Below are positions 555-56,500 of a stretch of DNA of 64,000 nt, piece after piece (position 1 is the first letter of the stretch; every line of letters begins with the position of its first letter). The notes below the pieces were generated by a model. That model did no database searches and had not been told where the DNA came from. It worked only from the letters and a program-made list of their open reading frames with translations. The stretch covers positions 189,038,001 through 189,102,000 of the forward strand of contig NC_042997.1 of NCBI RefSeq assembly GCF_006345805.1, read 5' to 3'. The stretch is from Octopus sinensis (Eukaryota). The translations under genes and the position numbers were made by a program.

Positions 555-562
<8 letters not shown>

Positions 563-3140
563 TATTGGCAGGGCTGGCCTGCTAGGTAGCCGGCCAGAAT
601 GCTAGAAATAGATCATCAACGATCAAACTACAAGGGAAATTCTCTAGAGGAAGAATTCAGCGAACACCAGAACCAAATTTGGCGGGCAGGACATATGAAA
701 AATTAAATAAAAAAAAGACTTAAATGCATACCTCGGTTTCGGTCTTAACAAAAGAATTACTTGCATAATTCAAGTGTCCGTGACTTCTTCAGTACATTCG
801 GTCCTCGAGATGCAAACCGCAAGACTAACCCCAGCTCTCTGTGTCAAGACAGACACGTGCTTAGTCTTACTGATTACATCGGGAATAAAATTTCAAATGT
901 CTTGGTTCCGGCGCGCTAAGAGACTCCTGAAGCGAAGGGCTGCAGTGAATAATTCACTGCGGGTAAAGCTTACTACTAGGGAACGTATTTATTTAAATAT
1001 TTAAAAATTGAGGGAGATAAATTAATATTAATTTTAATATCAATTTAAAACCAGTAGTCCAGCATTCAAAAAATCTGAGGAGTCAGAGAAAATTCAAATA
1101 TATGTGTATATTGGCAGGGCTGGCCTGCTAGGTAGCCGGCCAGAATGCTAGAAATAGATCATCAACGATCAAACTACAAGGGAAATTCTCTAGAGGAAGA
1201 ATTCAGCGAACACCAGAACAAATTTGGCGGGCAGGACATATGAAAAATAAATAAAAAAAACAGACTTAAATGCATACCTCGGTTTCGGTCTTAACAAAAG
1301 AATTACTTGCATAATTCAAGTGTCCGTGACTTCTTCAGTACATTCGGTCCTCGAGATGCAAACCGCAAGACTAACCCCAGCTCCCTGTGTCAAGACAGAC
1401 ACGTGCTTAGTCTTACTGATTACATCGGGAATAAAATTTCAAATGTCTTGGTTCCGGCGCGCTAAGAGACTCCTGAAGCGAAGGGCTGCAGTGAATAATT
1501 CACTGCGGGTAAGCTTACTACTAGGGAACGTATTTATTTAAATATTAAAAATTGAGGGAGATAAATTAATATTAATTTTAATATCAATTTAAAACCAGTA
1601 GTCCAGCATTCAAAAAATCTGAGGAGTCAGAGAAAATTCAAATATGTGTATATTGCAGGGCTGGCCTGCTAGGTAGCGGCCAGAATGCTAGAAATAGATC
1701 ATCAACGATCAAACTACAAGGGAAATTCTCTAGAGGAAGAATTCAGCGAACACCAGAACCAAATTTGGCGGGCAGGACATATGAAAAATTAATAAAAAAC
1801 AGACTTAAATGCATACCTCGGTTTCGGTCTTAACAAAAGAATTACTTGCATAATTCAAGTGTCCGTGACTTCTTCAGTACATTCGGTCCTTGAGATGCAA
1901 ACCGCAAGACTAACCCCAGCTCTCTGTGTCAAGACAGACACGTGCTTAGTCTTACTGATTACATCGGGAATAAAATTTCAAATGTCTTGGTTCCGGCACA
2001 CTAAGAGACTCCTGAAGCGAGGGCTGCAGTGAATATTCACTGCGGGTAAAGCTTACTACTAGGGAACGTATTTATTTAAATATTAAAAATTGAGGGAGAT
2101 AAATTAATATTAATTTTAATATCAATTTAAAACCAGTAGTCCAGCATTCAAAAAATCTGAGGAGTCAGAGAAAATTCAAATATATGTGTATATTGGCAGG
2201 GCTGGCCTGCTAGGTAGCCGGCCAGAATGCTAGAAATAGATCATCAACGATCAAACTACAAGGGAAATTCTCTAGAGGAAGAATTCAGCGAACACCAGAA
2301 CCAAATTTGGCGGGCAGGACATATGAAAAATTAAATAAAAAACAGACTTAAATGCATACCTCGGTTTCGGTCTTAACAAAAGAATTACTTGCATAATTCA
2401 AGTGTCCGTGACTTCTTCAGTACATTCGGTCCTCGAGATGCAAACCGCAAGACTAACCCCAGCTCCCTGTGTCAAGACAGACACGTGCTTAGTCTTACTG
2501 ATTACATCGGGAATAAAATTTCAAATGTCTTGGTTCCGGCGCGCTAAGAGACTCCTGAAGCGAAGGGCTGCAGTGAATAATTCACTGCGAGTAAAGCTTA
2601 CTACTAGGGAACGTATTTATTTAAATATTTAAAATGAGGGAGATAAATTAATATTAATTTTAATATCAATTTAAAACCAGTAGTCCAGCATTCAAAAAAT
2701 CTGAGGAGTCAGAGAAAATTCAAATATATGTGTATATTGGCAGGGCTGGCCTGCTAGGTAGCCGCCAGAATGCTAGAAATAGATCATCAACGATCAAACT
2801 ACAAGGGAAATTCTCTAGAGAAGAATTCAGCGAACACCAGAACCAAATTTGGCGGGCAGGACATATGAAAAATAAATAAAAAACAGACTTAAATGCATAC
2901 CTCGGTTTCGGTCTTAACAAAAGAATTACTTGCATAATTCAAGTGTCCGTGACTTCTTCAGTACATTCGGTCCTTGAGATGCAAACCGCAAGACTAACCC
3001 CAGCTCTCTGTGTCAAGACAGACACGTGCTTAGTCTTACTGATTACATCGGGAATAAAATTTCAAATGTCTTGGTTCCGGCACACTAAGAGACTCCTGAA
3101 GCGAAGGGCTGCAGTGAATAATTCACTGCGGGTAAAGCTT
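555..3140 (-). repeat. Tandem array of ~4.7 copies of a ~543-bp hammerhead-containing unit (retrozyme/Penelope pLTR-like)
   Basis: Unit anchors ttg(g)caggg at 565, 1111, 1653, 2193 and 2737; near-identical copies; starts in a TA microsatellite and ends abruptly at ~3140. Confidence 0.9.
722..799 (-). ncRNA. Minimal type I hammerhead ribozyme motif (further copies at 1268-1345, 1807-1884, 2350-2427, 2891-2968)
   Basis: Minus strand reads gaatgta-CTGAAGA-a-GTC..(gaatta/taattc hairpin)..GAC-c-GAAA-CCGAGGT-A-tgcattt. Stem I is gaatgta/tgcattt, stem III is ACC-GA-GGT, and the cleavage triplet is GUA. Confidence 0.75.
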
Positions 3141-3417
3141 AAGTGTGTGTGTTTGTGTATATCCTTTTCTTGACACCACATGGTAGTTGTAAATGAGCAT
3201 CATCATCATATAATTGGTGTTCATTTTCAGTCTTCCATGAAAAGCATGTCTGGCCATGGGGAAATATTGCATTGCCTGGAAACTGATGAGAATTGATGAC
3301 ATGAAGGGCATCTAGTTGTAAGAAATCTGTTTCAACAAATTCTGTCTGACGCATACAAGTATGGAAAAGTGGACATGAAATGATGATGATAATGATATAC
3401 ACAAACTTATATATATA

Positions 3418-24908: not shown

Positions 24909-27900
24909 TTAATTGTAGTTTGAATTTGATAAATTGTATTGTATTTTAAGGAATGGCCTTTCAGTAATCTGATGTGCAGTGAAATAAATTGGGATAGGCA
25001 AGATTGGTACTGTTATTGTGTTTATGTAATGTAGGAGTATGTAAAAGTAATAGGAGTTGTATAGGTAGAATATGGAGAATATTACAGAAAATCATAGAAT
25101 ATGGGGAATAAAGTGAAAAGTGAATAGTAGATATTAGTTTAATTGAAGATAAAGAGTAGCTTACAAATTCTGAACTGAGGCAGAAAGAAGGTTTTATTGA
25201 TTGAACAGATGACTGTGATTGGAGGTGGTACAACTCCCAAATATGAGAATGCAATGTCATAAGGTTCCAGGTTTTAGCTGTTACTGATAAGATGAATAAT
25301 AATCTTGTTAATTTTAACTGAAGTAATTTAGGAAAAAAAAAAAAGTTACTATTAGGTCCAAGGAAGTCCTGTTAAATTGGTTGACATACAAGTTGTTCTG
25401 CTTGTCATGAACAAAAGTAATGAATATTTGGAAGTGAAAAAATATTGTTATCGTTCTGTGTAATGAGTGTCTTTATTTTGTCAATTATTTAAAATTCATT
25501 TTGGGTATTAATAAAATTTTCATCAGCTCTTATGGCTAGTCTGCAATGTTTTTATAGTCTTTCACTGCTTTCCATTTTTAATCTGTAAATTTTCATATGC
25601 TTATGTCTTGTTTAATTTTGAAAACAATAAGAATTTGGAATGAATTAGTTAAATAACTAATTTTTAGGTGCATTTCTATATCAAATTGGTGTTTTTAACA
25701 TAAGGATAAAATTTTATTGCGTAAAATTATGATGGAAAGTTCTGACTTAATTGTGCATACTTCAAAACAAGATTTTAGTTTGCATCCAAGAACCAAACGA
25801 GCAAAATACGTACAATTTACTTTTACCATTATCATGGGAGGACTCATTGATAGAAAAAAAGTTTTAAACGTTTATCTTTAGAAACAAAGACTGACTCAGT
25901 TAATTTACCAAATAATTTAACTTTCAGTTATTCTGAGAGAATTTATATTGAAGTTTAACAGAGTAGAAAAATATATCGAAACTTGTAGAAATAGGATCAT
26001 AAAAGAGTTAGCAACATAAAAAGACCTTTTAGCAATCTTTTACATTTTTCTGGATATACTTGGTTATTTTCAGCATTATCAAATACAACAGGATGCTTGC
26101 ATGTTTGCTATTTTGAGTGCATGTTTAAAATATTTCTCTTATATTTCACAATATATATTTTTTTATATTCTTTTTAAATAAAGTTATGGTGTTGGTGGCT
26201 TTTATACTTTTATTTGCTCTTCACCCGGAACTTGTGTTTTTGGTGTTTTATATAAATTTTTGCTTTGGACATTCAGTTTAAGAATTTTAAAATCAAATCT
26301 GAAATCTCAACACTTAATTGTACTGTTACTTGACAAATTTCTTGTCATCAATTTATTTCATCCTGAAGCATTGCTTTCTCTTTTATTTTATTCACAGTAT
26401 TGGCTACTGTGATAGTGCTGACCACTGTTTTGCTCAATCCTCATTCAGAAATGCGTCCTGTTTGAAATTTTTGTATTGGTACATGCACAGTTAAAGAGTT
26501 GTGTAATGTATTTGTTTGCTGATGTCTAATCTATATGTATAATCAGGACTTATCTTACTAACTCTTAACAGTGGGACACATAGAGGCATCGTGTGCATGC
26601 ATAAACTTTTTAAGTTAGAATGAGGGCAGTGTAAAAATGCCATCAGATGTGGGGCTAGATTTCATATATATATATATATATATAAATACAGATGAGTGGT
26701 ACAACAAGGCATCAATATTTACTGGAAATAGCAGTCGATACAAATACGATGTTATTGTAAAGCTTCACTGCGTATATACTGGCAAAGACGTGTGAGTGCA
26801 ACAAACATGAAAAATTTGTTTTACCTCTAGGAAGAACATTCGATAAATGGACAACCCAGAATTGGATAATGCAGGACCGGTTTCTGACTCTTCAAATACG
26901 TTTGTCAATGTAAATTTGATCAGTCTTCATCAGCTGCATTTACCTAGACAAGATTTCAAATGTTGCCACATCAATGCCAGTACACTCGCCTGAACGCTTA
27001 GTTGTTAAAAGAACGAGAAGAGTGAAAAGGTTTTCAATGAAAAAATACAATAAAATAAAAATAAAACCTCATAAGGGTAATAAAATAAATACAGTAAAAT
27101 AAAGCCCTATAAGGGTAGAAGTATAACTATAAATACAGATGAGTGGTACAACAAGGCGCCAATATTTACTGGAAATAGCAGTCGATACAAATATGACAGT
27201 ATTGTAAAGCTTCACTGCGTATATACATTCAAATATATATACATACCTGTATGTATGTGTGTGTGTATATATAGGACCCGGCAGGACTAGTCAGGCCATA
27301 TCCCGTGGCCCCTACCTGGGACGTAGTCGATCCACCTGTGCATACCTTCCTTCTTGTGACACTTGTGAAGACCTGCTGAGGCAAGTGTAAATCAATCAAA
27401 ATAGATGAACATCAATGGAATTTGTATCTTTGTGGTACCAGTGCCTGTGGCACACAAGAAAACCATCCGAACGTGGCCGTAGCCAGTACCGCATCGACTG
27501 GCCTCCGTGCTGTGGGAACATGGTGGCACATAAAAACACCATCCGAAGACCCGGCAAGACTAGTCAGGTCATAACCCGTGGGCCCTACCTGGGACGTAGT
27601 CAGTCCACCTGTACATACCTTCCTTCTTGTGACACTTGTGAAGACCTGCTGAGGCAAGTGAAAATCAAATCAAATCAAAACAAATCAAAATAGATGAACA
27701 TCAATGGAATTTGTATCCTTGTGGTACCAGTGCCGGTGGCACACAAGAATCCATCCGAACGTGGCCGTAGTCAGTACCGCTTGTGGTACCAGTGCCGGTG
27801 GCACACAAGAATCCATCCGAACGTGGCCGTAGTCAGTACCGCATCACTCGCCATTGTGCTGTGGGCACATAACAAACACCATCCGGTCGTGGCCGTTCGC

Positions 27901-29865
27901 CAGCCTCATCTAGCACCTGTGTCGGTGGCACATAAAAAGTAGTCAGTACCGCTTGTGGTACCAGTGCCGGTGGCACACAAGAATCCATCCGAACATGGCC
28001 GTAGTCAGTACCGCATCACTGGCCATCGTGCTGTGGGCACATAACAAACACCATCCGGTCGTGGCCGTTCGCCAGCTTCATCTAGCACCTGTGTCGGTGG
28101 CACATAAAAACACCTTCCGAAGACCCGGCAAGACTAGTCAGGCCATAAACCATGGCCCCTACCTGGGACGTAGTCAGTCCACCTGTGCATACCTTCCTCC
28201 TTGTGATACTTGTGAAGGCCTGTTGAGGCAAGTGAAAATCAAATCAAAATCAAATCAAAACAAATCAAAATAGATGAACATCAATGGAATTTGTATCTTT
28301 GTGGTACCAGTGCCGGTGGCACACAAGAGAAAACCATCCGAAAGTGGCCGTAGCCAGTACCGCATCGACTGGCCTCCGTGCTGTGGGCACATGACAAACA
28401 CCATCCGATCGTGGCCGTTCGCCAGCCTCATCTAGCACCTGTGTCGGTGGCACATAAAAACACCATCCGAAGACCCGGCAAGACTAGTCAGGCCATAACC
28501 CATGGCCCCTACCTGGGACGTAGTCAGTCCACCTGTGCATACCTTCCTTCTTGTGACACTTGTGAAGACCTGTTGAGGCAAGTGAAAATCAAATCAAAAC
28601 AAATCAAAATAGATGAACATCAATGGAATCTGTATCTTTGTGGTACCAGTGCCGGTGGCACACACTTTGTGGTACCAGTGCCGGTGGCACACAAGAGAAC
28701 CATCCGAACGTGGCCGTAGCCAGTTCCGCATCGACCGGCCTCCGTGCTGTGGGCACGTAACAAACACCATCCGATCATGGCCGTTCGCCAGCCTCATCTG
28801 GCACCTGTGTCGGTGGCACATAAAAACACCTTCCGAAGACCCGGCAAGACTAGTCAGTCCACCTGTGCATACCTTCCTTCTTGTGACACTTGTGAAGACC
28901 GGTTGAGGCAAGTGAAAATCAAATCAAATCAAAATAGACAAAATAGATGAACATCAATGGAATTTGTATCCTGTGGTACCAGTGCCTGTGGCACACAAGA
29001 ATCCATCAGTGCCGTAGTCAGTGCGGTGGGCACATGACAAACACCATCCGATCGTGGCCGTTCGCCAGCCTCATCTAGCACCTGTGTCGGTGGCACATAA
29101 AAACACCATCCGAAGACCCGGCAAGACTAGTCAGGCCATAACCCATGGCCCCTACCTGGGACGTAGTCAGTCCACCTGTGCATACCTTCCTTCTTGTGAC
29201 ACTTGTGAAGACCTGTTGAGACAAGTGAAAATCAAATCAAAACAAATCAAAATAGATGAACATCAATGGAATTTGTATCTTTGTGGTACCAGTGCCGGTG
29301 GCACGTGGCACATAAGAAAACCATCCGAACGTGGCCGTAGCCAGTACCGCATCGACTGGCCTCCGTGCTGTGGGCACGTAACAAGCACCATCCGATCGTG
29401 GCCGTTTGCCAGCCTCATCTGGCACCTGTGTCGGTGGCACATAAAAACACCATCCGAGCGTGGCCGTCTGCCAGCCTCGTCTGGCACCTGTGTCGGTGGC
29501 ACATAAAAACACCATCCGAGCGTGGCCGTCTGCCAGCCTCGTCTGGCACCTGTGTCGGTGGCACATAAAAACACCATCCGAGCGTGGCCGTCTGCCAGCC
29601 TCGTCTGGCACCTGTGTCGGTGGCACATAAAAACACCATCCGAGCGTGGCCGTTTGCCAGCCTCGTCTGGCACCTGTGTCGGTGGCACATAAAATCACCC
29701 ACTACACTCTCGGAGTGGTTGGCGTTAGGAAGGGCATCCAGCTGTAGAAACACTGCCAGATCTGACTGGACTGGTGCAGCTTTCGGGCTCCCCAGACCCC
29801 AGTTGAACCGTCCAACCCATGCTAGCATGGAAAGCGGACGTTAAATGATGATGATGATGATGATG

Positions 29866-29905
<40 letters not shown>

Positions 29906-31829
29906 TTACTTATAGATATAGATACATGTATAAAATACATGCATACATTCATGCGTACAGCAGGCAGATTTTGCCATATCAAACAAAGTAAATATACAGA
30001 AACTATGAAATATTTACTTTTGGTGAAACGAAATAAACTCCGGCTTTAATGCACATAACTGCTAAAGTATGAGTCTTTCCTGTAATAGTTTTGAGATTAA
30101 ATATTTGACAGATAGAATTTAAAAAAAAATGTTTTTCATATGATTTATGAAGATATAATTAAAAAGAGAAAAGATATCTTTCAGGGACACAATTGTCAAG
30201 TCCGAACATTTCAGATTTTATTGTTTACTTTCACCCACTATCTGCTTTTATTACTATTGGTGCATGGCTGATTGGGAAGCTATACTAACAAGCCCATTGC
30301 TTTCAGGTATGAGGAGTACTTTGGTGCTGGTAGTTACGATGACTATGAAAATTATAGTCGTCCAAGTCGAGAGCAATCTCGTACACACACCCCATTACAA
30401 GAACCCTCATCTCGAGGACCTATGTAAGTTTTAACCCCTAATTTTTGTTGCTTGTTTGTTTTTTTTCTGTATATTTTTGTAACTGTTTGGTTCAGTTTTT
30501 GTTTTTGAGTTTTAAATTGTGTGTATATATATATGTGTGTATCTAAGTGTACTCAGTATGGAACTGAAAAGACTATAATTCAAATTAGTACTCAGTACAT
30601 GTGTTGAGTAGAATGGATGTATTCATTTGTTAGCAAAAAGACCCTATGGAAAGCTCATTCTGTTTCAGTGGGTTCAGTTATAGAGGTCAAACTCACATCA
30701 TTAGGAATAAATAACTGCTATGCATACTGAATGTGACTAGTGCTGTATATCATAGAGTGTGTGTATGTTTGTATGTATGTTTAATTTGGGTGATGGGTTT
30801 AATTGTGGCTAATGTATGTGTTTTGGTTTATAATCAGTTGGGTGTGCATGTCTGTGAGTGTGGCTAGTGTAGCTCTATAGTGTTAGTTCATAAACACACA
30901 TGCACACACATACACATGAGAAATTTGATAGTCATGCTTTGACTAAAAAGACAAGTGAACTAGCTAAAGTTGTTTTAATTAAAACAGGTTTCTAATACAA
31001 CTTTGTTGTTGCTGTTGTTGTTATTAATTAGCTCTGACTGTGACGAAGTGGTATAACAAGTAATCTAGAGGGAAAATATAAACAGATGACATCAAGGTTT
31101 GGGTTGGAAAACTGATCAGAGAGAGAAATAAAAGCAAACAATTTCAGTATTCTAGAACATGTGAAGGGGATATTTGGAATGCATATGGGAGTTTGAAGCC
31201 TAGATGTTTTCTATGCAAACCGTTTTCCTCCCTGCAATAATATAAAATTATTAAAGTGGATAGATGCAGTTTAAAACCAAAAGGCACAAATACAATCATC
31301 ACTAAAAGTGACTAAGAGTGCAAGTTAGCACCATCATTTCTAGAAATAAGAGTCAAAATAACTCTTAGCCATGAACAGAGTGCATGCACACATACACTCT
31401 ACAATACAAAATGGGACAAGAACGCAAAACATCTGGATAGTTAGGTGTTACATAATGGGACAACAAATAATCCAGATAGATGATACAAAGAAAATAAGGA
31501 TGGGTCACTTGGAGTTTTCTTTCCTCAGTCGAGTACCAGATTATCTTTGCAATTTCGGCTGAATATATTCAAGATTGTTCCAATCTGGCCAGCCCCAAGG
31601 AAAAACTAAGCTAAGAGCATTAGATTCCTTGGAAGGAAGCAGTGAATGTATTATATATATATATACACATACATACTGTCCAACCCATGCCAGCATGGAA
31701 AGCGAGATAAATGATGATGATGATGATATATGTGCATGTATGATGTTGCACTTTGGGCAAATGTCTTCTACTGTAGTCTCAAACTGACCTATTTTTTTGT
31801 GAGTGTAATCAGTGGATGGAAACTCTCTG

Positions 31830-48100: not shown

Positions 48101-49277
48101 AACATAACAAATTTAATGCTTTTTTCACAAAATCTAAATTTACCAATGGTATTGTAAGTACCAAATTGAACCAGAAAATAGAAACATACAATGCTCTTCA
48201 TTGTTAATCTATAAATTTTCCAGTTTCTTCCTCTCATTTTATCAAGAAACTAGCAGTATCGCCCGGCGTTGCTTGGGTTTGTTTCGACCCTTTAGAATTG
48301 GAATTTTTGAAAAGTAAAAATTTTGCATTATGTAGCTTGTTATTCTCTTTAAGTGAGCATTTTTCTGTTTGAAATACACCGAAAAATGGCGACACAGCAG
48401 TAAAAAAATCGTAAAATATAGGGATTTTCATAGAAAAAAGCACCTTTTTGATGTAAATAATTTTTTGTGTTAACATGGTCCGATTTGAATTTTATCTTCT
48501 ACGGAGTGAAGAGCAAGCCTTCTTCTATCATCATACTCTCAATTTTGGTCTACTTGTGCTGCAGGGTCTTGGAGGAGATAGTGTTAGTTGAAGGCTACCA
48601 AACCTGCCACACACAGACAACTTCAGCATTATATATAGAGATAATTGAAATTATGTAAACATTGTTTGAAGATTCAGATGAAAGTACTATATTTAATAAA
48701 AATATTTCATTAATAAATTGTTGTTTTTTTATCATTTTTGACTTTCCATTCACAGGAAGGCGCAATACAACCATTATCTGGTTCTGCTACACCATTAGGA
48801 CCCCAAACAACGGCAACTAGCAGTGAAAGTGGAGAAGTGGCAAATTACCTAAATAATATGCAAGATTCTTTGGTGTCTGGCTATTCACAAGGAGCGATGG
48901 GAAGTTATATTCAAGATCAACAGTGGGGTGCACCCGGTATCTCAACTGAGGCTGGTTACAGTGGAGAGCAACATCAACAGCAGCCTTTTCTTGAACAGCA
49001 TTTACCTAATAATAATTATTTTAACAATTCAGTTAGTGCACAACAACACTCTCAGCAACAAGTACTACAGCATCAACAACAATATCAGCAACAACTAAAT
49101 AGTCAACAACAGTTTCATGGAAATGCTGGTAAATACCTACAAACAGTTTTCTTTCGTACCATTTTAATTACACTTCTTTAAATACATTTAAACACTCTAC
49201 ATTGTTAATCCGATTTGTTTACAGAATCTCTTTATCACCATTACTAATATAATATTAATGCCTCTTTTGATAGACAC

Positions 49278-49325
<48 letters not shown>

Positions 49326-50081
49326 TATATATATACTGGCACTTGTACTGGTGGCACGTGAAAAAACATTCGAGCGAGGTTGTTGCCAGTGCTGCTGGAC
49401 TGGCTCCTGTGCAGGTGGCACATAAAAAGCACCATTTGAGTGTGGCCATTGCCAGTACTGCCTGACTGGCCCTCGTGCCGGTGGCAACGTAAAAGCACCC
49501 ACTGCACTCTCAGAGTGGTTGGTGTTAGGAAGGGCATCCAGCTGTAGAAACTCTGTCAGATCAGATTGGAGTCTGGTGCAGCCATCTGGTTGGCCAGACC
49601 TCAGTCAAATCGTCCAACCCATGCTGGTATGGAAAGCGGACGTTAAACGATGATGATATATATATATATATATATATATACATACAGATGTGTGTGTGTG
49701 TGTATAAACCTTTTGTTGTAGAAATATAAACATGGCAAATTTAACTACATCTCCCAAAACAGAAAAACAATGATGAACACCTTTAATTGATTTTTGAACC
49801 TTAGTGCGTTCTCATCAGAGGTGTCTACATCATTTAACCAATCCCAGAGAAATAAGCAGCCTGTCTTTTTATATACACAACAAATCCAGTAGATTCAGAG
49901 AACTGTTTATATATTCTGGCTGTAAAACCAAACCAAAATGATATGCAAGTGGGATTCTGTCCCTCAATGCATGCACACCGACTGCAATGACCTGTTCAAC
50001 TTATACCAGCATGCAAAGCTAATGAAATGATGAGATTTATACACCTACACTAAGTTATTTCATATATATGCTAGATTACTT

Positions 50082-50116
<35 letters not shown>

Positions 50117-50484
50117 CATCATCATCATCGTTTAACGTCCGTTCTCCATGCTAGCATGGGTTGGACGGTTCGACCGGGGATCTGGGAAGCCAGAAGGCTG
50201 CACCAGGCTCCAGTCTGATCTGGCAGTGTTTCTACAGCTGGATGCCCTTCCTAACACCAACCACTCCGTGAGTATAGTGGGTGCTTTTTGCGTGTCACCG
50301 GCACAGGTGCCAGGCGAGGCTGGCAACGACCACGATCGGATTGGTGCATTTTACGTGCCACCGGCACGGAAGCCAGTCAAGGCGGTGCTGGCATCGGCCA
50401 CGATTCGGATGGTGTTTTTTATGTGCCACCGGCACGGAAGCCAGTCTAGGCGGCACTGGCATCGGCCACGTTCAGATGGTGCTT

Positions 50485-50515
<31 letters not shown>

Positions 50516-53500
50516 GATGCAATCAATAAATTGTTGCCATTTTATAGTTTTAATTTTGTGCATGTACATTGTTTGTTTTTGATTTTGTCTACTACACAGT
50601 ATAGTAGGATCAGTTGGGCACAGTACTTATTCTTTTGGTATCTTTTGCTGGACCTCTCAGGTTTAGATTAGTGGTAACATCCTAGTAGGCTAAGTTTCTC
50701 ACATAGATTTGTCACATTTATTCTTGTGATTCTTATGTCCTTGAGGAAAATGTGTTATCCACAACCAATTTAAATGTTAAGACTTTTTGCATGTTTGATG
50801 AAAGCAATTGAAAAGTGCTTTTGTGAGCATTCATTTGCTATAATAGGATTATAATAAATTATATTTGGAGATACTGATATTGAGGAGAAAAAAAAAAGAA
50901 GAGAAAAATAAACATTGTCAAAGATAATTATAGCCTAAGATAAGAAGAGTAATGTGCCTTGCTAAATAGCAGCCTTTGATTCTTAACTCATTACCATTGT
51001 ACTTCTTATAACATATTCTTTTACTAGCTCCAGTCAGTGGACTGCATTCATGCTGGGGATTTTTACTAGAAAAGCTCTTAGTTGATTATAGCAATCACAG
51101 ATTTTAGTCAAGCACTTATTTTATCAGCTTTGAAAGTGAACAGTAGGCCAAGTCAGTATGGTGCAAAGGGACATAATCAAGGCAAATCAAATACTGCAAG
51201 GTATTTTTTATTTAGTTCTCTGATTTTGCACTCTCACTCTGTACATACATCAATGACTGATGCATCTGGATACATCTTCAGTGATGTGCCTAGTATCTTC
51301 GAGTGTTTCGAGTCTTACAACATCATACACCCTCCTCCAGGTGACCCAGGTGGGGCTGATCAGACCCCAGCTTGTGTCCAGATGGCCAGTTAGCTAACTC
51401 ATGGCTCTCCTCTTTTGATCTACACCCTTCTTGAGGCCCCCTTTGCTGCATCAGTGGTACTGCAGATGGTCTTCTTCACTCCTTCAATGCCCAAACTGTG
51501 GAAGGCTCTGGTCAGGGAATGGGCTGCAAAACCCCTGTATCCAACCTCCACTGGGAGACACCTTGCTCTTAAGGACTTGGGCATGCCTCCAGCAGTACCG
51601 TCCTTCACCATGTGCCCCTGTGCAGCATCTGAGGATGTGTTCCAGGGTTCCTCGTTTGAAATACAATGCACATGGTGGTGTCTCTGCTATACTCCATGTG
51701 TACAGGTTTGATGGGTTTGGAAGCACATCGTACACTGCCTGGATGAGGAATTTAATGTGTGAGGTTTGGCTTTCCACAGCTCAGCCCAGGTCACTTTCCT
51801 CTTGGCCACATTCTCTCATCTTGTCCAGGCTCTCGGTTGCTTCATTTCCACTGCCTCACATGTTCTCATTTCCTCCACTGCAGCTCTCACCTCCTCGTGA
51901 ACAAGGCGGTGCCCTTCTTTCCCACTGGTGTTCGTTTGAGGAGTTGGAAAGTAGCCTAGCCCAGCTCTGCCTTGTGTGACCACTCCTACAATTCTCCTTT
52001 TGGTGCAGCCTTGCCTCTGCCTCTTGAACTGCATCCTCTGCTCTTCACTTCCTGTCAGTCCTCACTTGGATCCCTGCTTTAGCCACCTTCAGATCACAAG
52101 AGTTCCTGTACTGGACCACTTCTCTGGATCTTGTCACCTTGAATTCCTCTTCCAATGATTTGAAGGGCAACTGCAGTTTGGTGTTGTTGCTGTAAAGCGT
52201 GATGCTGCTCAGGCTCCTTGGTAATCCAAGCCATCTCCAGAGGTGGTTGCTGACCCTCCTCTCTCAGGTCTCTACTGTTGAGATGGGGATTGCATAGACA
52301 AGGAGGGACCACAGGATCCTGGGAAGAATGCTGTGTTGGTAGACCCAGGCTTTGAACTTCCTAGGTAGGCCTGACTTGTCCACGGATTTCAGCCAGCCAT
52401 CCAACTCAGTGCAGGCTGACTGGATAGATGTAGTATCTCTCAATGAGCTGTTGAAAACCTTGCCCAAGCTCTTGACTGACTTCTCTGTGATTGCTGGAAT
52501 GGCTAACTTCTTGATCCCAAAACTATGCATGCGCACACATATATATTCATTTGCATAAATGCTTATGACTGGCTTTTACTGATCCCATTTACCAAATTCT
52601 ATTCAAAAGTCTTTTGTTGACTTGAAGCTATGGTAGAGAAAAATACCGAGTGTCACACAGTGGACTTTAAGATGGGAACATGAGGTTGTGAAGCAAACAT
52701 TTTAATTATACACTAAAGTATATAAGTTCAAATATTTTTGTATGAAGATTCATTTTTCTGTTTCTAGTCATTCAGGTTTCATTCCTTGTAATATTTTATT
52801 ATTTATAGAATATTCCTATAATTATACACAACAACAACAACAACAGCCACAAGAATCTATGTATAACTATCAAGAAGAAACAGATGGACTTCAGAATTCA
52901 AATTATCCCCAGAACGAGCCTGATAGTAGAATCCATGCCCCTCAAGGTAAGACATTGTTTTTTTTTTTTTTTTTTATCCTTTAATAATCAGAATCCATTT
53001 ATTGTGTTGGCACAATAGCAAATTCTTGTGTTTAAAATGTTAGCTGAGAGAGAAGAGGCACTTAAGCTTTTGTATGGTATGGTCTTCTTGACGGGTGTCA
53101 GTAATGTACTTGACTGTCAGTTTGAAAAACTGGAGGTCAACATCTGTTGGTAAAATGTGGGAGAGTTGGGATTCTCGAGGGTGGTGAGAATGGTTAATAA
53201 AAAAAAATGCTCTGTGCAGAATCTGGCAGGTAAAGCATAGTAGGTAGGTTGGGTAGATTGAGAAGACCTGGATGTTTCTCAGAGTTTTATGTGTATGCGT
53301 GTGTTTGTGTGTGTCTTTGTCTTGACATCACATGATGGTTGTAAATAACCATCACCATCATACAAATGATGTTGCTCATTTTTAGTCTTCAGTGAAAAAC
53401 ATGTCTGGCTATGGAAACATATTACCTTGTTTAGAATCAGCTGAACATTGGCAATAGGAAAGGTATCTAGTCAAAGAAAATCTGCTTAGTAAATTTACAT

Positions 53501-56500
53501 CTGACCCATGCAAGCATGGAAAATGGATGTTAAAAATGATGATGATACATATTGCCAAATTTGCAAGCCAAAGATGAAGCTTTTCTCTATATTTGATGCA
53601 AAAAAAGAATTGAAATCCTTAGTTATTGTTTTTTTTTTTTACTGTTTCACATTTGTTTTTCCATACTAGCATGATTTGTATACAGTTTTTATAGATTTGG
53701 ACATCTGCTTGCTTTCAAAGCTATGATTTTTATTGTTGATTGCTTTTCCTAATACTATCATTTGAGTGAAGTTGTTGCCAGTGCTGCTGGACTGGCTCCT
53801 GTGCAGGTGGCATGTAAAAAGCACCATTTGAGCATAGCTGTTGCCAGTACCGCCTGGCTGGCCCTTGTGCCAGTGGCACATGAAAGCACCCACTGCATTC
53901 TCAGAGGAGTTGGCGTTAGGAAGGGCATCCAGCTGTAGAAACTCTGCCAGATCAGATTGGAGCCTGGTGCAGCCATCTGGTTCGCCAGCCCTCAGTCAAA
54001 TCATCCAACCCATGCTATTATGGAAAGCGGACGTTAAACGGTGATGATGATGATAACTATTAAAATCTAAATTGAGAAGTAAGTTTGAAAGTGACGTCTG
54101 TCAGACAGACTGACACAATCAGAGTTGTATTTGTATTCATTACTATGTCTTCAGCAGTCAGATGCCTCAACCACACAACTGTCATCTCTAAAATTTCTAA
54201 TGCTACCTTATTTAGTCTTCTATGCAAAATAAATGTGAAACAGTCAGAAAGTGAAAATAAATTAAAAGATTTTTTTTTGTTGTAAAAGGTTAGGAAAAAA
54301 AAAATCACTGAGAGATTCTTTATGATAATCTATTTGTTTCTGATGTTTTTATAGAGACAGTTGGATCTGATGCCCATCTTGGAGCTGGAAATATTACAAG
54401 TGATAATCAAGCATTTGGCAGTCAAGAACAGCAGGTTTCAGCCATATCTGGGACACAGTCTTGGGAAAAGCCTTTACATCCACCCCAAGCTCAAAATCTA
54501 ACCCAAGGATCTAATTCACATTCTGAAGAAGGAGTATCTGGAGATCAAGTAGGTTCTTCAACAACAGACACAACTAATTCTGAAGGAGGTGGATTTGATT
54601 ATTTTGGAAGCAGTACACACAAGGTGAGCAACCAGTTGTAGTATTTACGAAAATGAACTATTCCACTCCTCAAATGAGACAGCATTAGCAATTGATGGCA
54701 TCTCAGTATTAAGATTTCCTTTTTTTTTTTAATTTTATTAAAGTATTATAATAATGGGTTGTTTTCAAATTATTATCATCTGGGTAATTTTGTGGAATAT
54801 ATTTTAATTTTTAACTTCTCCAAAAGCTTGCAGATGTATTGCGATGTTTTATTATATTCAAAGATTTTGGCGCTTTGTTGTATTCTGCAAATCATTGTGA
54901 CTTTTAAAAATTCAGTTGAGAAGTATTTTCTCAGACATGGCGATTATATTATCTTAGATGAATAACAACTTTGTCTCTGTTATAAAACTTGTTTACGTGT
55001 ATTCTAAAATTTTATGGAAATATTTTATTTTAGAAAAGTATATCAAATTGTAAATAAATAAGCAAATTCTTCAGAAACCTTGTTCGCGTTTTTCATGGCC
55101 TTGATTATTTTATAAAAGATAAAATTACTGCATTACTAATAAATGATTTCTGATATGGGATACACTGGTTATGTATATATATATATGTCAATAAGAAGAA
55201 AAGATTTGCTTGTAAGGCTAATGACTTAGTTGATGTTACATGAACTTTTGATGTTATAACAGTTCTGAGATTAAACAGAGCGTGCAACCTTTTAATCCTT
55301 CATTTGTGGATAAAATTGTTTCTTAAATATATTTGCTTATAAAGATATTTTCAATAATAATAGAGTAGAATGAGGAGCAGATAAAATGCATTGCTACTCC
55401 TATGCAGAAAAATGTTATATAATTTTTTTCCTGTGACCCTAGAGAAGCAAAACAATTTAATTATTTATTATTCAATTACATCCAAAAGTAAAGTTGAAGC
55501 AAAACTTTTGTTGATACCTTATAGAGAAGGAGAACAGCAAATCTTTGATAATGTAACTGTTGCACTGTCAAAGAACTCTACTAAAAATGTTAGTAGGTTT
55601 AGCTGAAGTGCATATTATATTTATTTAGATTTATAGTATTGGAGAATGTATCTTTTTTTTTTGTGCTGTTTAGTATAGTTATCTTTTTTTCAAATGTTCA
55701 ACTTAAATTTCCATACATTCAGTTATACTGTTTATCTTTAAAGAGTATGAAGTTAATTATTTATATTTCTTTTGCTTTTGGATTTGATGTTATAACCTTT
55801 AAAATTGTGTTTATAATTAACCTTCCAGTTAGTTAATTAATTATAGCTTAAAAATGTGGTTACTTAAGTAAGGAATTAGCTTATTCTTTTGAGGAAAGCT
55901 TGTTTGTACAACATGGTTGATGATACAATAAGCAATGTATTATCTGAAGTCCACTGATTATCATCAAGATGGTGGTATGATGTATCATCATTGTTTAAAG
56001 TTGGAGATAGATAGAGAGAGAGAAAGACATACACACACACACAGAAGTACAGTTTGAGGCTGAAATCAATAGAAGCTGTAAAGGAAAGAGAGTTCTATTA
56101 GAAGAGCTTCTAATTTCAGAATCAACATGGATATTTCATTAGAATTTAGCAGAGAAACAAACTGATGCTAAATGTTTGTGTGAAAATGATGAAGAATTTA
56201 GTAAAGTAATTTTGTCATTATTAAGCTGGTGTTTGGAACATCAATTAACATAATATTTTGAAAAAAAGCTTTTCATTTAGATCACTTTAATACAGGAAAT
56301 TTGTGCCATAGAACCAGGCATGGTCTTCAGATTGCTTGGTATCAAAAGGGTTATAGCAGAAGAACTTTCTCACCTGAACTTTTTTACAAATGGAACTGTC
56401 AGAAAGTTTGTCCCTGTGATAGTAACTTAATGTTATTATTTGATGAATTTCATTTACCCAGGTGCAAAATAGAACATGAATTTATAATCTATTTTGCACT

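What the first reader, a model, noticed from the sequence alone, without database searches (positions are those of the whole stretch)
51268..51332. Apparently non-circularly permuted hammerhead in the 3' UTR of a HERO/NeSL-like LINE
Seen on the minus strand, just after the ORF end: [GGGTGT-A-TGATGT] ... [gactc-GAAACACTC] ... [ACATCA-CTGAAGA-tgtatc]. GGGTGT pairs with ACACTC (stem III, 6 bp) and TGATGT pairs with ACATCA (stem I, 6 bp), with a GUA cleavage site. The strand order is cleavage strand, then GAAA strand, then CUGANGA strand, which is not any of the circular types I/II/III. Natural non-circular HHR permutations have been reported, to my recollection; I cannot confirm whether this family is among them. 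Established: LINE ribozymes are normally 5' HDV-like (R2, RTE, L1Tc), so an HHR at the 3' end is unusual and could define the RNA 3' end used for target-primed reverse transcription. Caveat: stem II is weak here (gactc vs tgtatc; GTATC could instead pair with the linker GATAC).
Basis: partly seen in the sequence, partly recalled or inferred. Interest (0 to 1): 0.75.

Follow-up and report, generated by a model that had tools for sequence, protein, structure and literature searches.

The report
Rewired hammerhead ribozyme in HERO-type retrotransposons
The tail of this dead jumping-gene copy, and of dozens of distant relatives, keeps every catalytic letter of the hammerhead self-cutting RNA in a wiring I could not find in print; it is predicted to cut the element's RNA, and the shape of the genomic copies suggests the element is likely copied from an RNA circle.

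Summary
The strands run S-G-C, as in published type-SGC hammerheads (Eckert 2023, known only from metatranscriptomes). Stem II, however, pairs with an upstream strand (51347-51343), not with the bases after CUGANGA. Two extra helices sit between A9 and G10.1, which the published block scheme assumes cannot happen, and a k-turn motif caps stem III. In 79 relatives picked by protein alone, a strict descriptor found the core in 44 (0 of 1580 shuffles). The cut cannot define the 3' end used for priming: copies end 87-116 nt beyond it. In a young sister family, 14 of 16 independent 5' ends are preceded by the element's own 3' end and 11 read through the cut; 4 of 327 copies begin exactly at the cut (0.65 expected). 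Best reading: the ribozyme excises a unit-length RNA that is likely circularised and reverse-transcribed. Cleavage and circles are untested. The window copy is a truncated fossil. The scan reported this system before on other DNA (96 notes, at least 13 genomes).

The parts
51240..52504 (-). 5'-truncated, frameshifted copy of an RT + RLE non-LTR retrotransposon (family A); about 345 nt missing near 51565, including the endonuclease catalytic region
   Evidence: (query 27-967 and 962-1109 lie about 345 nt apart in the longer copy L062)
51373..51384 (-). P0, 5' strand; pairs with the bases directly after A9
   Evidence: 11 of 12 pairs in the window; 76% paired, 10 of 10 pairs with double changes
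51348..51372 (-). P4 hairpin between P0 and G10.1; its loop holds a self-complementary TGATCA (51362-51357)
   Evidence: palindrome of 6 or more in 27 of 40 loops, 7.1 expected
51343..51347 (-). stem II, strand 10.1-10.5 (the true partner, upstream of the cut)
51337..51341 (-). stem I-II interaction helix, 5' strand
   Evidence: 93.8% paired
51333..51334 (-). k-turn motif, GA of the non-bulged strand; partner is the 3-nt bulge plus GA at 51300-51296
   Evidence: 26 of 40 with a 3-nt bulge; 0-8 of 40 for other bulge lengths
51326..51332 (-). stem III strand 16.6-16.1 and A17; predicted cut after 51326
51320..51325 (-). stem I strand 1.1-1.6
   Evidence: 93.1% paired, 6 of 6 pairs with double changes
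51301..51314 (-). block G: stem II strand 11.5-11.1, GAAA, stem III strand 15.1-15.6
   Evidence: GAAAC invariant in alignment A2
51289..51293 (-). stem I-II interaction helix, 3' strand
51275..51287 (-). stem I strand 2.6-2.1 and CUGAAGA
   Evidence: CTGA.GA invariant in A2, for which the rows were chosen
51263..51274 (-). P0, 3' strand, starting directly after A9
31513..31607 (-). second hammerhead of the same wiring (P0 after A9, upstream stem II, interaction helix, k-turn motif; no P4) in a copy (31404-31651) of a separate, about 760-nt non-coding repeat

Best explanation
The 3' UTR of this retrotransposon clade carries a conserved hammerhead fold in a new wiring, which is predicted to cut the element's RNA and likely serves to release a unit-length RNA that is closed into a circle and used as the reverse-transcription template. 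Shown by covariation: stems I, II and III, the I-II interaction helix, and two helices (P0, P4) inserted between A9 and G10.1. Topologically it is a type-SGC hammerhead whose two ends are joined through a k-turn motif and which is reopened inside the core. Shown in the genome: copies with an intact 5' end are almost always preceded by a variable piece of their own 3' end, so they hold two ribozymes. Inferred: a transcript of such a copy is cut at both ribozymes, and the monomer is ligated, probably by RtcB as for animal retrozymes. Inferred: the enzyme primes internally at a fixed point 87-116 nt past the cut, copies round the circle through the sealed cut and overshoots, which regenerates the terminal redundancy. 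Inferred: the rare copies that start exactly at the cut come from cut but unligated RNA. Inferred, weaker: the palindromic P4 loop lets two RNAs kiss. The window's own copy is a solitary truncated fossil and cannot do this.
For: Descriptor hit in 44 of 79 protein-selected metagenome loci, 0 of 1580 shuffles. A covariance model hits 60 of 79, of which 27 are training rows; 3 more are found by the descriptor only. On MAFFT alignment A2 (28 rows, sequence only): 85.6% of cells paired, 36 of 40 pairs with double changes, 0 of 500 shuffles as high, slid controls 31-45%. RNAalifold recovers P0, P4, the interaction helix and stem III unaided. Three subfamilies in the own genome, about 35-45% identical in the protein segments compared, have different stems and the same fold. 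The cut triplet is NUH in 40 of 40 (required by the parser) and GUH in 39; N7 is free. Head-to-tail junctions of 3' UTR and 5' UTR occur in metagenome contigs and in family C. Of 30 family-C 5' ends (16 independent events), 14 events carry 22-979 nt of the element's own 3' end, 11 run past the cut, and the junction is uniform. 3' ends of dispersed copies run raggedly into the first bases of the 5' UTR. Of 327 copies with the exact 33 nt after the cut, 28 lack C17 and 4 of these start exactly at the cut; 0.65 expected, P about 0.005, range 0.0005-0.027. One more copy joins an inverted piece at the cut, and none of 100 starts at -1 to -9. RtcB circularisation of retrozyme monomers: PMC7229834, passages.
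Against: No cleavage assay and no RNA-end data. About 98% of family-C copies read through the cut, which fits sealed circles but also a slow or suppressed ribozyme. None of the 16 independent 5'-end events starts at the cut. The excess of starts at the cut rests on 4 copies and a background of 13 events. End-to-end template jumping could also build head-to-tail copies. Terminal redundancy was shown in family C and in metagenome relatives, not in the window's own family A, whose fetched long copies lacked 5' ends. Only 7 of 32 family-A copies keep an intact core. A core split between A9 and G10.1 by two helices has no precedent that I found, so activity is extrapolated. 16 of 79 loci gave no hit: 11 hold little 3' sequence or end before the place of the motif in their sister locus (one of them, L102, shows it by eye with a mismatch); L160, L172, L174, L175 and L177 have none. 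Shuffle controls ignore relatedness.
Confidence: 0.6

Rival explanations
1. The ribozyme is active but makes a linear template. It trims the 5' end of read-through transcripts (as the R2 5' ribozyme does), or leaves a nick held together by the helices, and the reverse transcriptase crosses the nick and the ends by template jumping. No circle.
For: Same structural evidence. 4 of 327 copies start at the cut. P0, II, III and I would hold the two products together. R2 RT template jumping is recalled, not from a call.
Against: A linear RNA starting at the cut should give full-length copies that start there; 0 of 16 events do and 11 run past it. Junctions are uniform and 3' ends run into the 5' UTR sequence, which suggests a continuous template.
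Confidence: 0.2
2. The ribozyme is a brake: cutting removes the 3' binding site and tail from most transcripts and limits transposition, and only uncut multimeric transcripts of tandem copies are inserted.
For: About 98% of copies read through the cut. SGC ribozymes are slow, 0.007-0.19 per min (PMC10085705, Table 1).
Against: It does not by itself explain why 14 of 16 intact 5' ends carry their own 3' end, or how uncut multimers prime at one fixed internal site. Retention across nearly the whole protein tree fits a needed step better than a brake.
Confidence: 0.1
3. The fold is a protein-binding or dimerisation signal with a hammerhead-like core and does not cut.
For: k-turn motif and palindromic loop; unusual break at A9/G10.1; no assay.
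Against: All catalytic positions, NUH with G absent at 17, free N7 and G10.1-C11.1 follow the hammerhead pattern (NUH is imposed by the parser). Starts at the exact cut exceed background.
Confidence: 0.06
4. One reading: a plain SGC hammerhead whose cut makes the 3' end for target-primed reverse transcription.
For: Block order S-G-C is right.
Against: Its stem II is 54% paired; copies end 87-116 nt past the cut; the ribozyme would not be inherited.
Confidence: 0.02

Closest known systems
Type-SGC hammerhead ribozymes (HRIMA-1 and variants; Eckert et al. 2023, PMC10085705; I read parts 2-6 of 8 of the main text and searched the one supplement for five terms)
   Same: Block order S-G-C, all core nucleotides, a short linker from stem I to stem II, and a helix joining the other sides of stems I and II.
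   Different: There, CUGAnGA is followed within 0-2 nt by the stem II strand (an explicit assumption of the block scheme), and the RNAs were found in metatranscriptomes, none in genomes of known organisms. Here the stem II strand lies upstream, P0 and P4 are inserted at A9/G10.1, a k-turn motif links stem III to the interaction helix, and the host is an autonomous animal LINE.
Animal non-LTR retrozymes and Penelope pseudo-LTR hammerheads (PMC7229834, passages; bioRxiv 10.64898/2026.07.22.740005, passages; PMC4209133, search listing only)
   Same: Hammerheads in tandem or terminally redundant retroelements; monomers cut out and circularised, efficiently by RtcB in vitro.
   Different: Those carry type I hammerheads in 150-450 nt non-coding repeats or in Penelope elements. 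Here a rewired hammerhead sits in a 3.7-kb protein-coding RT + RLE element.
R2 5' ribozyme (PMC13580325, passages; its HDV-like fold is recalled)
   Same: A self-cleaving RNA that processes the template of an RLE non-LTR retrotransposon out of a longer transcript.
   Different: Different fold; at the 5' end; makes a linear 5' end that full-length copies share. Here it lies in the 3' UTR and copies read through the site.
HERO clade of RLE non-LTR retrotransposons (PMC4640811, passages)
   Same: RT plus restriction-like endonuclease; dispersed insertions without one fixed target; aquatic animal relatives (fish, molluscs).
   Different: No ribozyme is mentioned in the passages read; clade membership was not tested against reference HERO sequences.

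Membership tests
Hammerhead ribozyme | CUGANGA and GAAA core, NUH site, A15.1-U16.1 pair | tested here: met
   Window. Relatives were collected by protein, then parsed for these motifs: 44 of 79, 0 of 1580 shuffles; GUH in 39 of 40 unique.
Hammerhead ribozyme | Stems I, II, III around the core with covariation; G10.1-C11.1 | tested here: met
   90-96% paired; 14 of 17 pairs with double changes; G10.1-C11.1 in 25 of 28, 33 of 40.
Hammerhead ribozyme | Site-specific self-cleavage after N17 | not testable with these tools
   Indirect only: 4 of 327 copies start at the site, 0.65 expected.
Type-SGC hammerhead | Block order S, G, C | tested here: met
Type-SGC hammerhead | Helix joining stems I and II; short linker between stem I and stem II strands | tested here: met
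   93.8% paired; linker of 5 nt in the window
Type-SGC hammerhead | Block C unbroken: stem II strand within 0-2 nt after CUGAnGA | tested here: not met
   Base after A9 pairs with 11.1 in 5 of 40; downstream stem II 54% paired; it pairs in P0 instead.
k-turn | C helix, 3-nt bulge, tandem G.A/A.G | tested here: met
   Sequence pattern in 26 of 40, window included; the consensus is recalled and the 3D kink is untested.
HERO clade | Single ORF with RT, CCHC knuckle and RLE motifs, N-terminal CCHH finger | tested here: met
   RVT_1 hits; motifs read by eye in translations; motif names recalled.
HERO clade | RT phylogeny grouping with reference HERO elements | not testable with these tools
Retrozyme-like circular replication | Two ribozymes flanking one unit in genomic copies | tested here: met
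   Family C: 11 of 16 independent 5'-end events carry an upstream piece that includes the cut site; not shown for family A.
Retrozyme-like circular replication | Unit-length circular RNA in vivo | not testable with these tools
   Only assembled contigs were available.
Retrozyme | Non-coding, non-autonomous unit | tested here: not met
   The element encodes RT and endonuclease. The second repeat at 31.5 kb does meet it (longest stop-free frame 110 codons).

The most novel reading that the evidence does not exclude
A whole clade of autonomous, protein-coding LINEs replicates through a circular RNA made by its own ribozyme, which is a hammerhead with a split catalytic core (two helices inserted between A9 and G10.1), a k-turn scaffold and a kissing-loop dimer signal; non-coding repeats in the same genome have adopted the same wiring.
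Probability: 0.5. Interest if true: 0.92.

Novelty: new variant of a known kind. Interest (0 to 1): 0.8.

Why it matters
It breaks the stated rule that the hammerhead CUGANGA block is continuous with stem II, and it explains why genome-wide hammerhead searches and Rfam miss a ribozyme carried by a widespread animal retrotransposon clade. It gives non-circularly permuted hammerheads a known host. If the circle is real, a LINE primes internally on an RNA without a 3' end, which departs from the textbook model of target-primed reverse transcription and links LINEs to retrozymes and viroid-like replication. Both claims can be tested with a transcription gel and an RNase R assay. A ribozyme with a tolerant insertion point inside the core, and an RLE enzyme that copies circles, would also be of use in RNA and genome engineering.

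Tried and rejected
Rfam: no relevant hit in window 49000-56000 at E up to 5, and none at gathering score in 17 loci. Single-sequence folding was uninformative. Viral contigs: no pattern match and no protein relative. RNA runs: no holder on record as RNA was listed; four guessed-RNA runs were contigs only and show no ends or strand, so they are no evidence either way. The cut as 3' end was rejected. The cut as standard 5' end of full-length copies was rejected. The search for an intact family-A 5' end in nine 8-kb stretches failed. The protein tree is the quick version only and used the strict labels; it shows spread, not origin. The positions relative to the cut printed are mislocated and were not used. 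No tRNA head in 7 copies of the second repeat and no similarity to the HERO-type loci, so its mobiliser is unknown. Literature searches that found no description of this RNA; the library lacks most subscription journals and Repbase Reports, and bioRxiv supplements were closed.

Full report
Observation. They lie just past the end of a broken reading frame of an RT + restriction-like-endonuclease retrotransposon. The window copy runs from about 52504 to 51240, is 5'-truncated and lacks about 345 nt near 51565. A DNA search of the own genome gave 41 matches among 40 scored candidates of 90; 32 aligned copies end about 87 nt past the predicted cut. Only 7 of these 32 keep an intact core, the window's among them. 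Rfam and single-sequence folding show nothing.

What is known. Eckert et al. 2023 (PMC10085705; parts 2-6 of 8 read; supplement searched for five terms) define blocks S, G and C and validate type SGC. They assume block C cannot be interrupted by more than 1-2 nt, and they found no SGC example in genomes of known organisms. The order seen here is SGC.

The wiring is different. A protein search of the own genome turned up other subfamilies. Their 3' UTRs have the same core with different stems. In each, the strand before GAAA pairs with a strand upstream of the cut (family A GGGTC/GACCC, family B the reverse, family C a G-rich/C-rich pair), and the bases after CUGANGA pair with a strand further upstream (P0), with a hairpin (P4) in between. 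To test this without bias I aligned 66 proteins (64 of the 120 listed plus two own) and fetched 79 metagenome loci by protein only. A strict descriptor found the core in 44 of 79 (42 of 65 with at least 200 nt of UTR) and in 0 of 1580 shuffles. Among 40 non-redundant cases (38 metagenome, the window, family C), 10.1-11.1 was G-C in 33, while the base after A9 could pair with 11.1 in only 5. For an independent count I aligned 28 sequences of similar spacing by sequence alone (27 of the 29 so chosen plus the window; L127 and L130 left out as cut short). The 40-pair structure has 85.6% of cells paired, 36 pairs with changes on both sides, 0 of 500 shuffles as high, and slid controls at 31-45%. 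Per helix: P0 76%, P4 84% (outer six pairs), II 90%, I-II interaction 94%, III 96%, I 93%. RNAalifold finds P0, P4, the interaction helix and stem III unaided. A covariance model from this alignment hits 60 of the 79 loci, 27 of them training rows, some up to about 670 nt past the ORF; three more parse by descriptor. Five loci with enough sequence have no hit (L160, L172, L174, L175, L177). Presence is spread over the quick protein tree. The shuffle controls ignore relatedness, but the swaps between subfamilies at 35-45% protein identity are hard to explain otherwise.

Extra features. A k-turn pattern (GA; 3-nt bulge then GA) closes stem III in 26 of 40, against 0-8 of 40 for other bulge lengths. 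The P4 loop holds a palindrome of at least 6 nt in 27 of 40, 7.1 expected from loop shuffling, with forms TGATCA, TGGCCA, TGTACA, GACGTC and AGTACT; a kissing-loop role is inferred. In topological terms the RNA is an SGC hammerhead with its ends joined through the k-turn and reopened between A9 and G10.1, where P0 and P4 are inserted; that they stack and hold the core together is inferred.

What the cut is for. It cannot be the 3' end: copies end 87 nt (family A) or 116 nt (family C) beyond it. In many metagenome contigs the 3' UTR runs straight into the next 5' UTR. Family C in the own genome is young (unit 3737 nt; 1699 and 73 first-look candidates for 3' and 5' ends). The 30 best 5' ends reduce to 16 independent events (14 loci share one flank, 2 share another). 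Fourteen events carry the element's own 3' end upstream (22-979 nt; two of these read by eye), two carry only 3-4 matching bases, 11 run past the cut, none starts at it, and the junction is uniform. Dispersed copies end raggedly in the first bases of the 5' UTR, as expected if priming is internal on a continuous template; a target preference for these bases is an alternative. Of 327 copies with the exact 33 nt after the cut, 28 lack C17; 24 are point mutants and 4 start there with unrelated flank. Background truncation was 13 events in 6398 nt at risk, so 0.65 are expected (P about 0.005; 0.0005-0.027 over the background's range). In a separate look at the first 100 of 284 copies (29 fetched), three started at the cut (two of them among the four above, one an inverted join) and none at -1 to -9. 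This is weak to moderate evidence of cutting in vivo, with about 98% read-through.

Mechanism. The simplest account is the retrozyme route: a terminally redundant copy is transcribed, cut at both ribozymes and circularised (RtcB does this for retrozyme monomers in vitro; PMC7229834, passages); the enzyme primes at a fixed internal site, passes the sealed cut and overshoots. Structure and redundancy are shown; cutting, ligation and circle are inferred. Rivals are a linear or nicked template with template jumping, a self-limiting brake, and a non-catalytic fold. The runs on offer were contigs and say nothing on RNA ends.

A second case in the window. The model also hit 31508-31641. This is a copy of a different repeat of about 760 nt without a long frame (2375 first-look candidates). 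It has the same strand order, upstream stem II, interaction helix, k-turn pattern and P0, but no P4. Of 13 copies with a 5' start, 3 were preceded by their own 3' end by blast. The scan's index had no look-alike stretch, though notes e1-8668707 and e1-9546917 describe similar non-coding cases in other genomes.

Novelty. Nine literature searches found no description (search listings, plus passages of PMC4640811, PMC13580325, PMC7229834 and bioRxiv 10.64898/2026.07.22.740005); subscription journals and Repbase Reports are not covered. The scan itself had 96 notes in at least 13 genomes reaching a similar reading; I had written mine before looking, and those notes are not independent support. I file it as a new variant of the hammerhead, not as a member of type SGC, because block C is broken. 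The HERO name is recalled and untested.

Noticed in passing
window 31404-31651 (-): Copy of an abundant, about 760-nt non-coding repeat flanked by TA runs, carrying a hammerhead of the same wiring without P4; some copies are head-to-tail. Retrozyme-like; mobiliser unknown.
   Followed up: partly
L174:408-2420; also L160, L172: In one subclade the frame continues past the endonuclease into a ubiquitin-specific protease domain (Pfam UCH, E 3.8e-14); no ribozyme hit in the sequence held.
   Followed up: partly
window 51240-52504 against L106: The window's family is 82-86% identical at DNA level to a metagenome contig, and a longer family copy is 81% identical over 3.2 kb, while other subfamilies in the own genome are far more distant; possible horizontal transfer.
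   Followed up: no
L238-L247, L251, L253, L256, L259 (mostly G000:C18 3.8-5.2 Mb): Fourteen copies of one family-C junction share the same flank, so one insertion was amplified inside a larger repeat.
   Followed up: no
L115, L125, L135, L143, L148, L155 and others, about 165-215 nt past the ORF end: The 5' UTR of these elements opens with a conserved, internally repeated motif that may be an internal promoter or a second RNA structure.
   Followed up: no
L116, L119, L128, L129: A subclade with 3' UTRs of 600 nt or more containing repeated TAATCC/GGATTA elements upstream of the ribozyme.
   Followed up: no
window 555-3300: Five tandem copies of a unit of about 540 nt, each with CTGA.GA motifs on both strands; could be a satellite or a retrozyme array.
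   Followed up: no
window 27275-29760: Cluster of nested 62-nt and 172-nt tandem repeats of a SINE-like family.
   Followed up: no
L327: A family-C copy in which an inverted piece of the 3' end is joined exactly at the predicted cut.
   Followed up: partly
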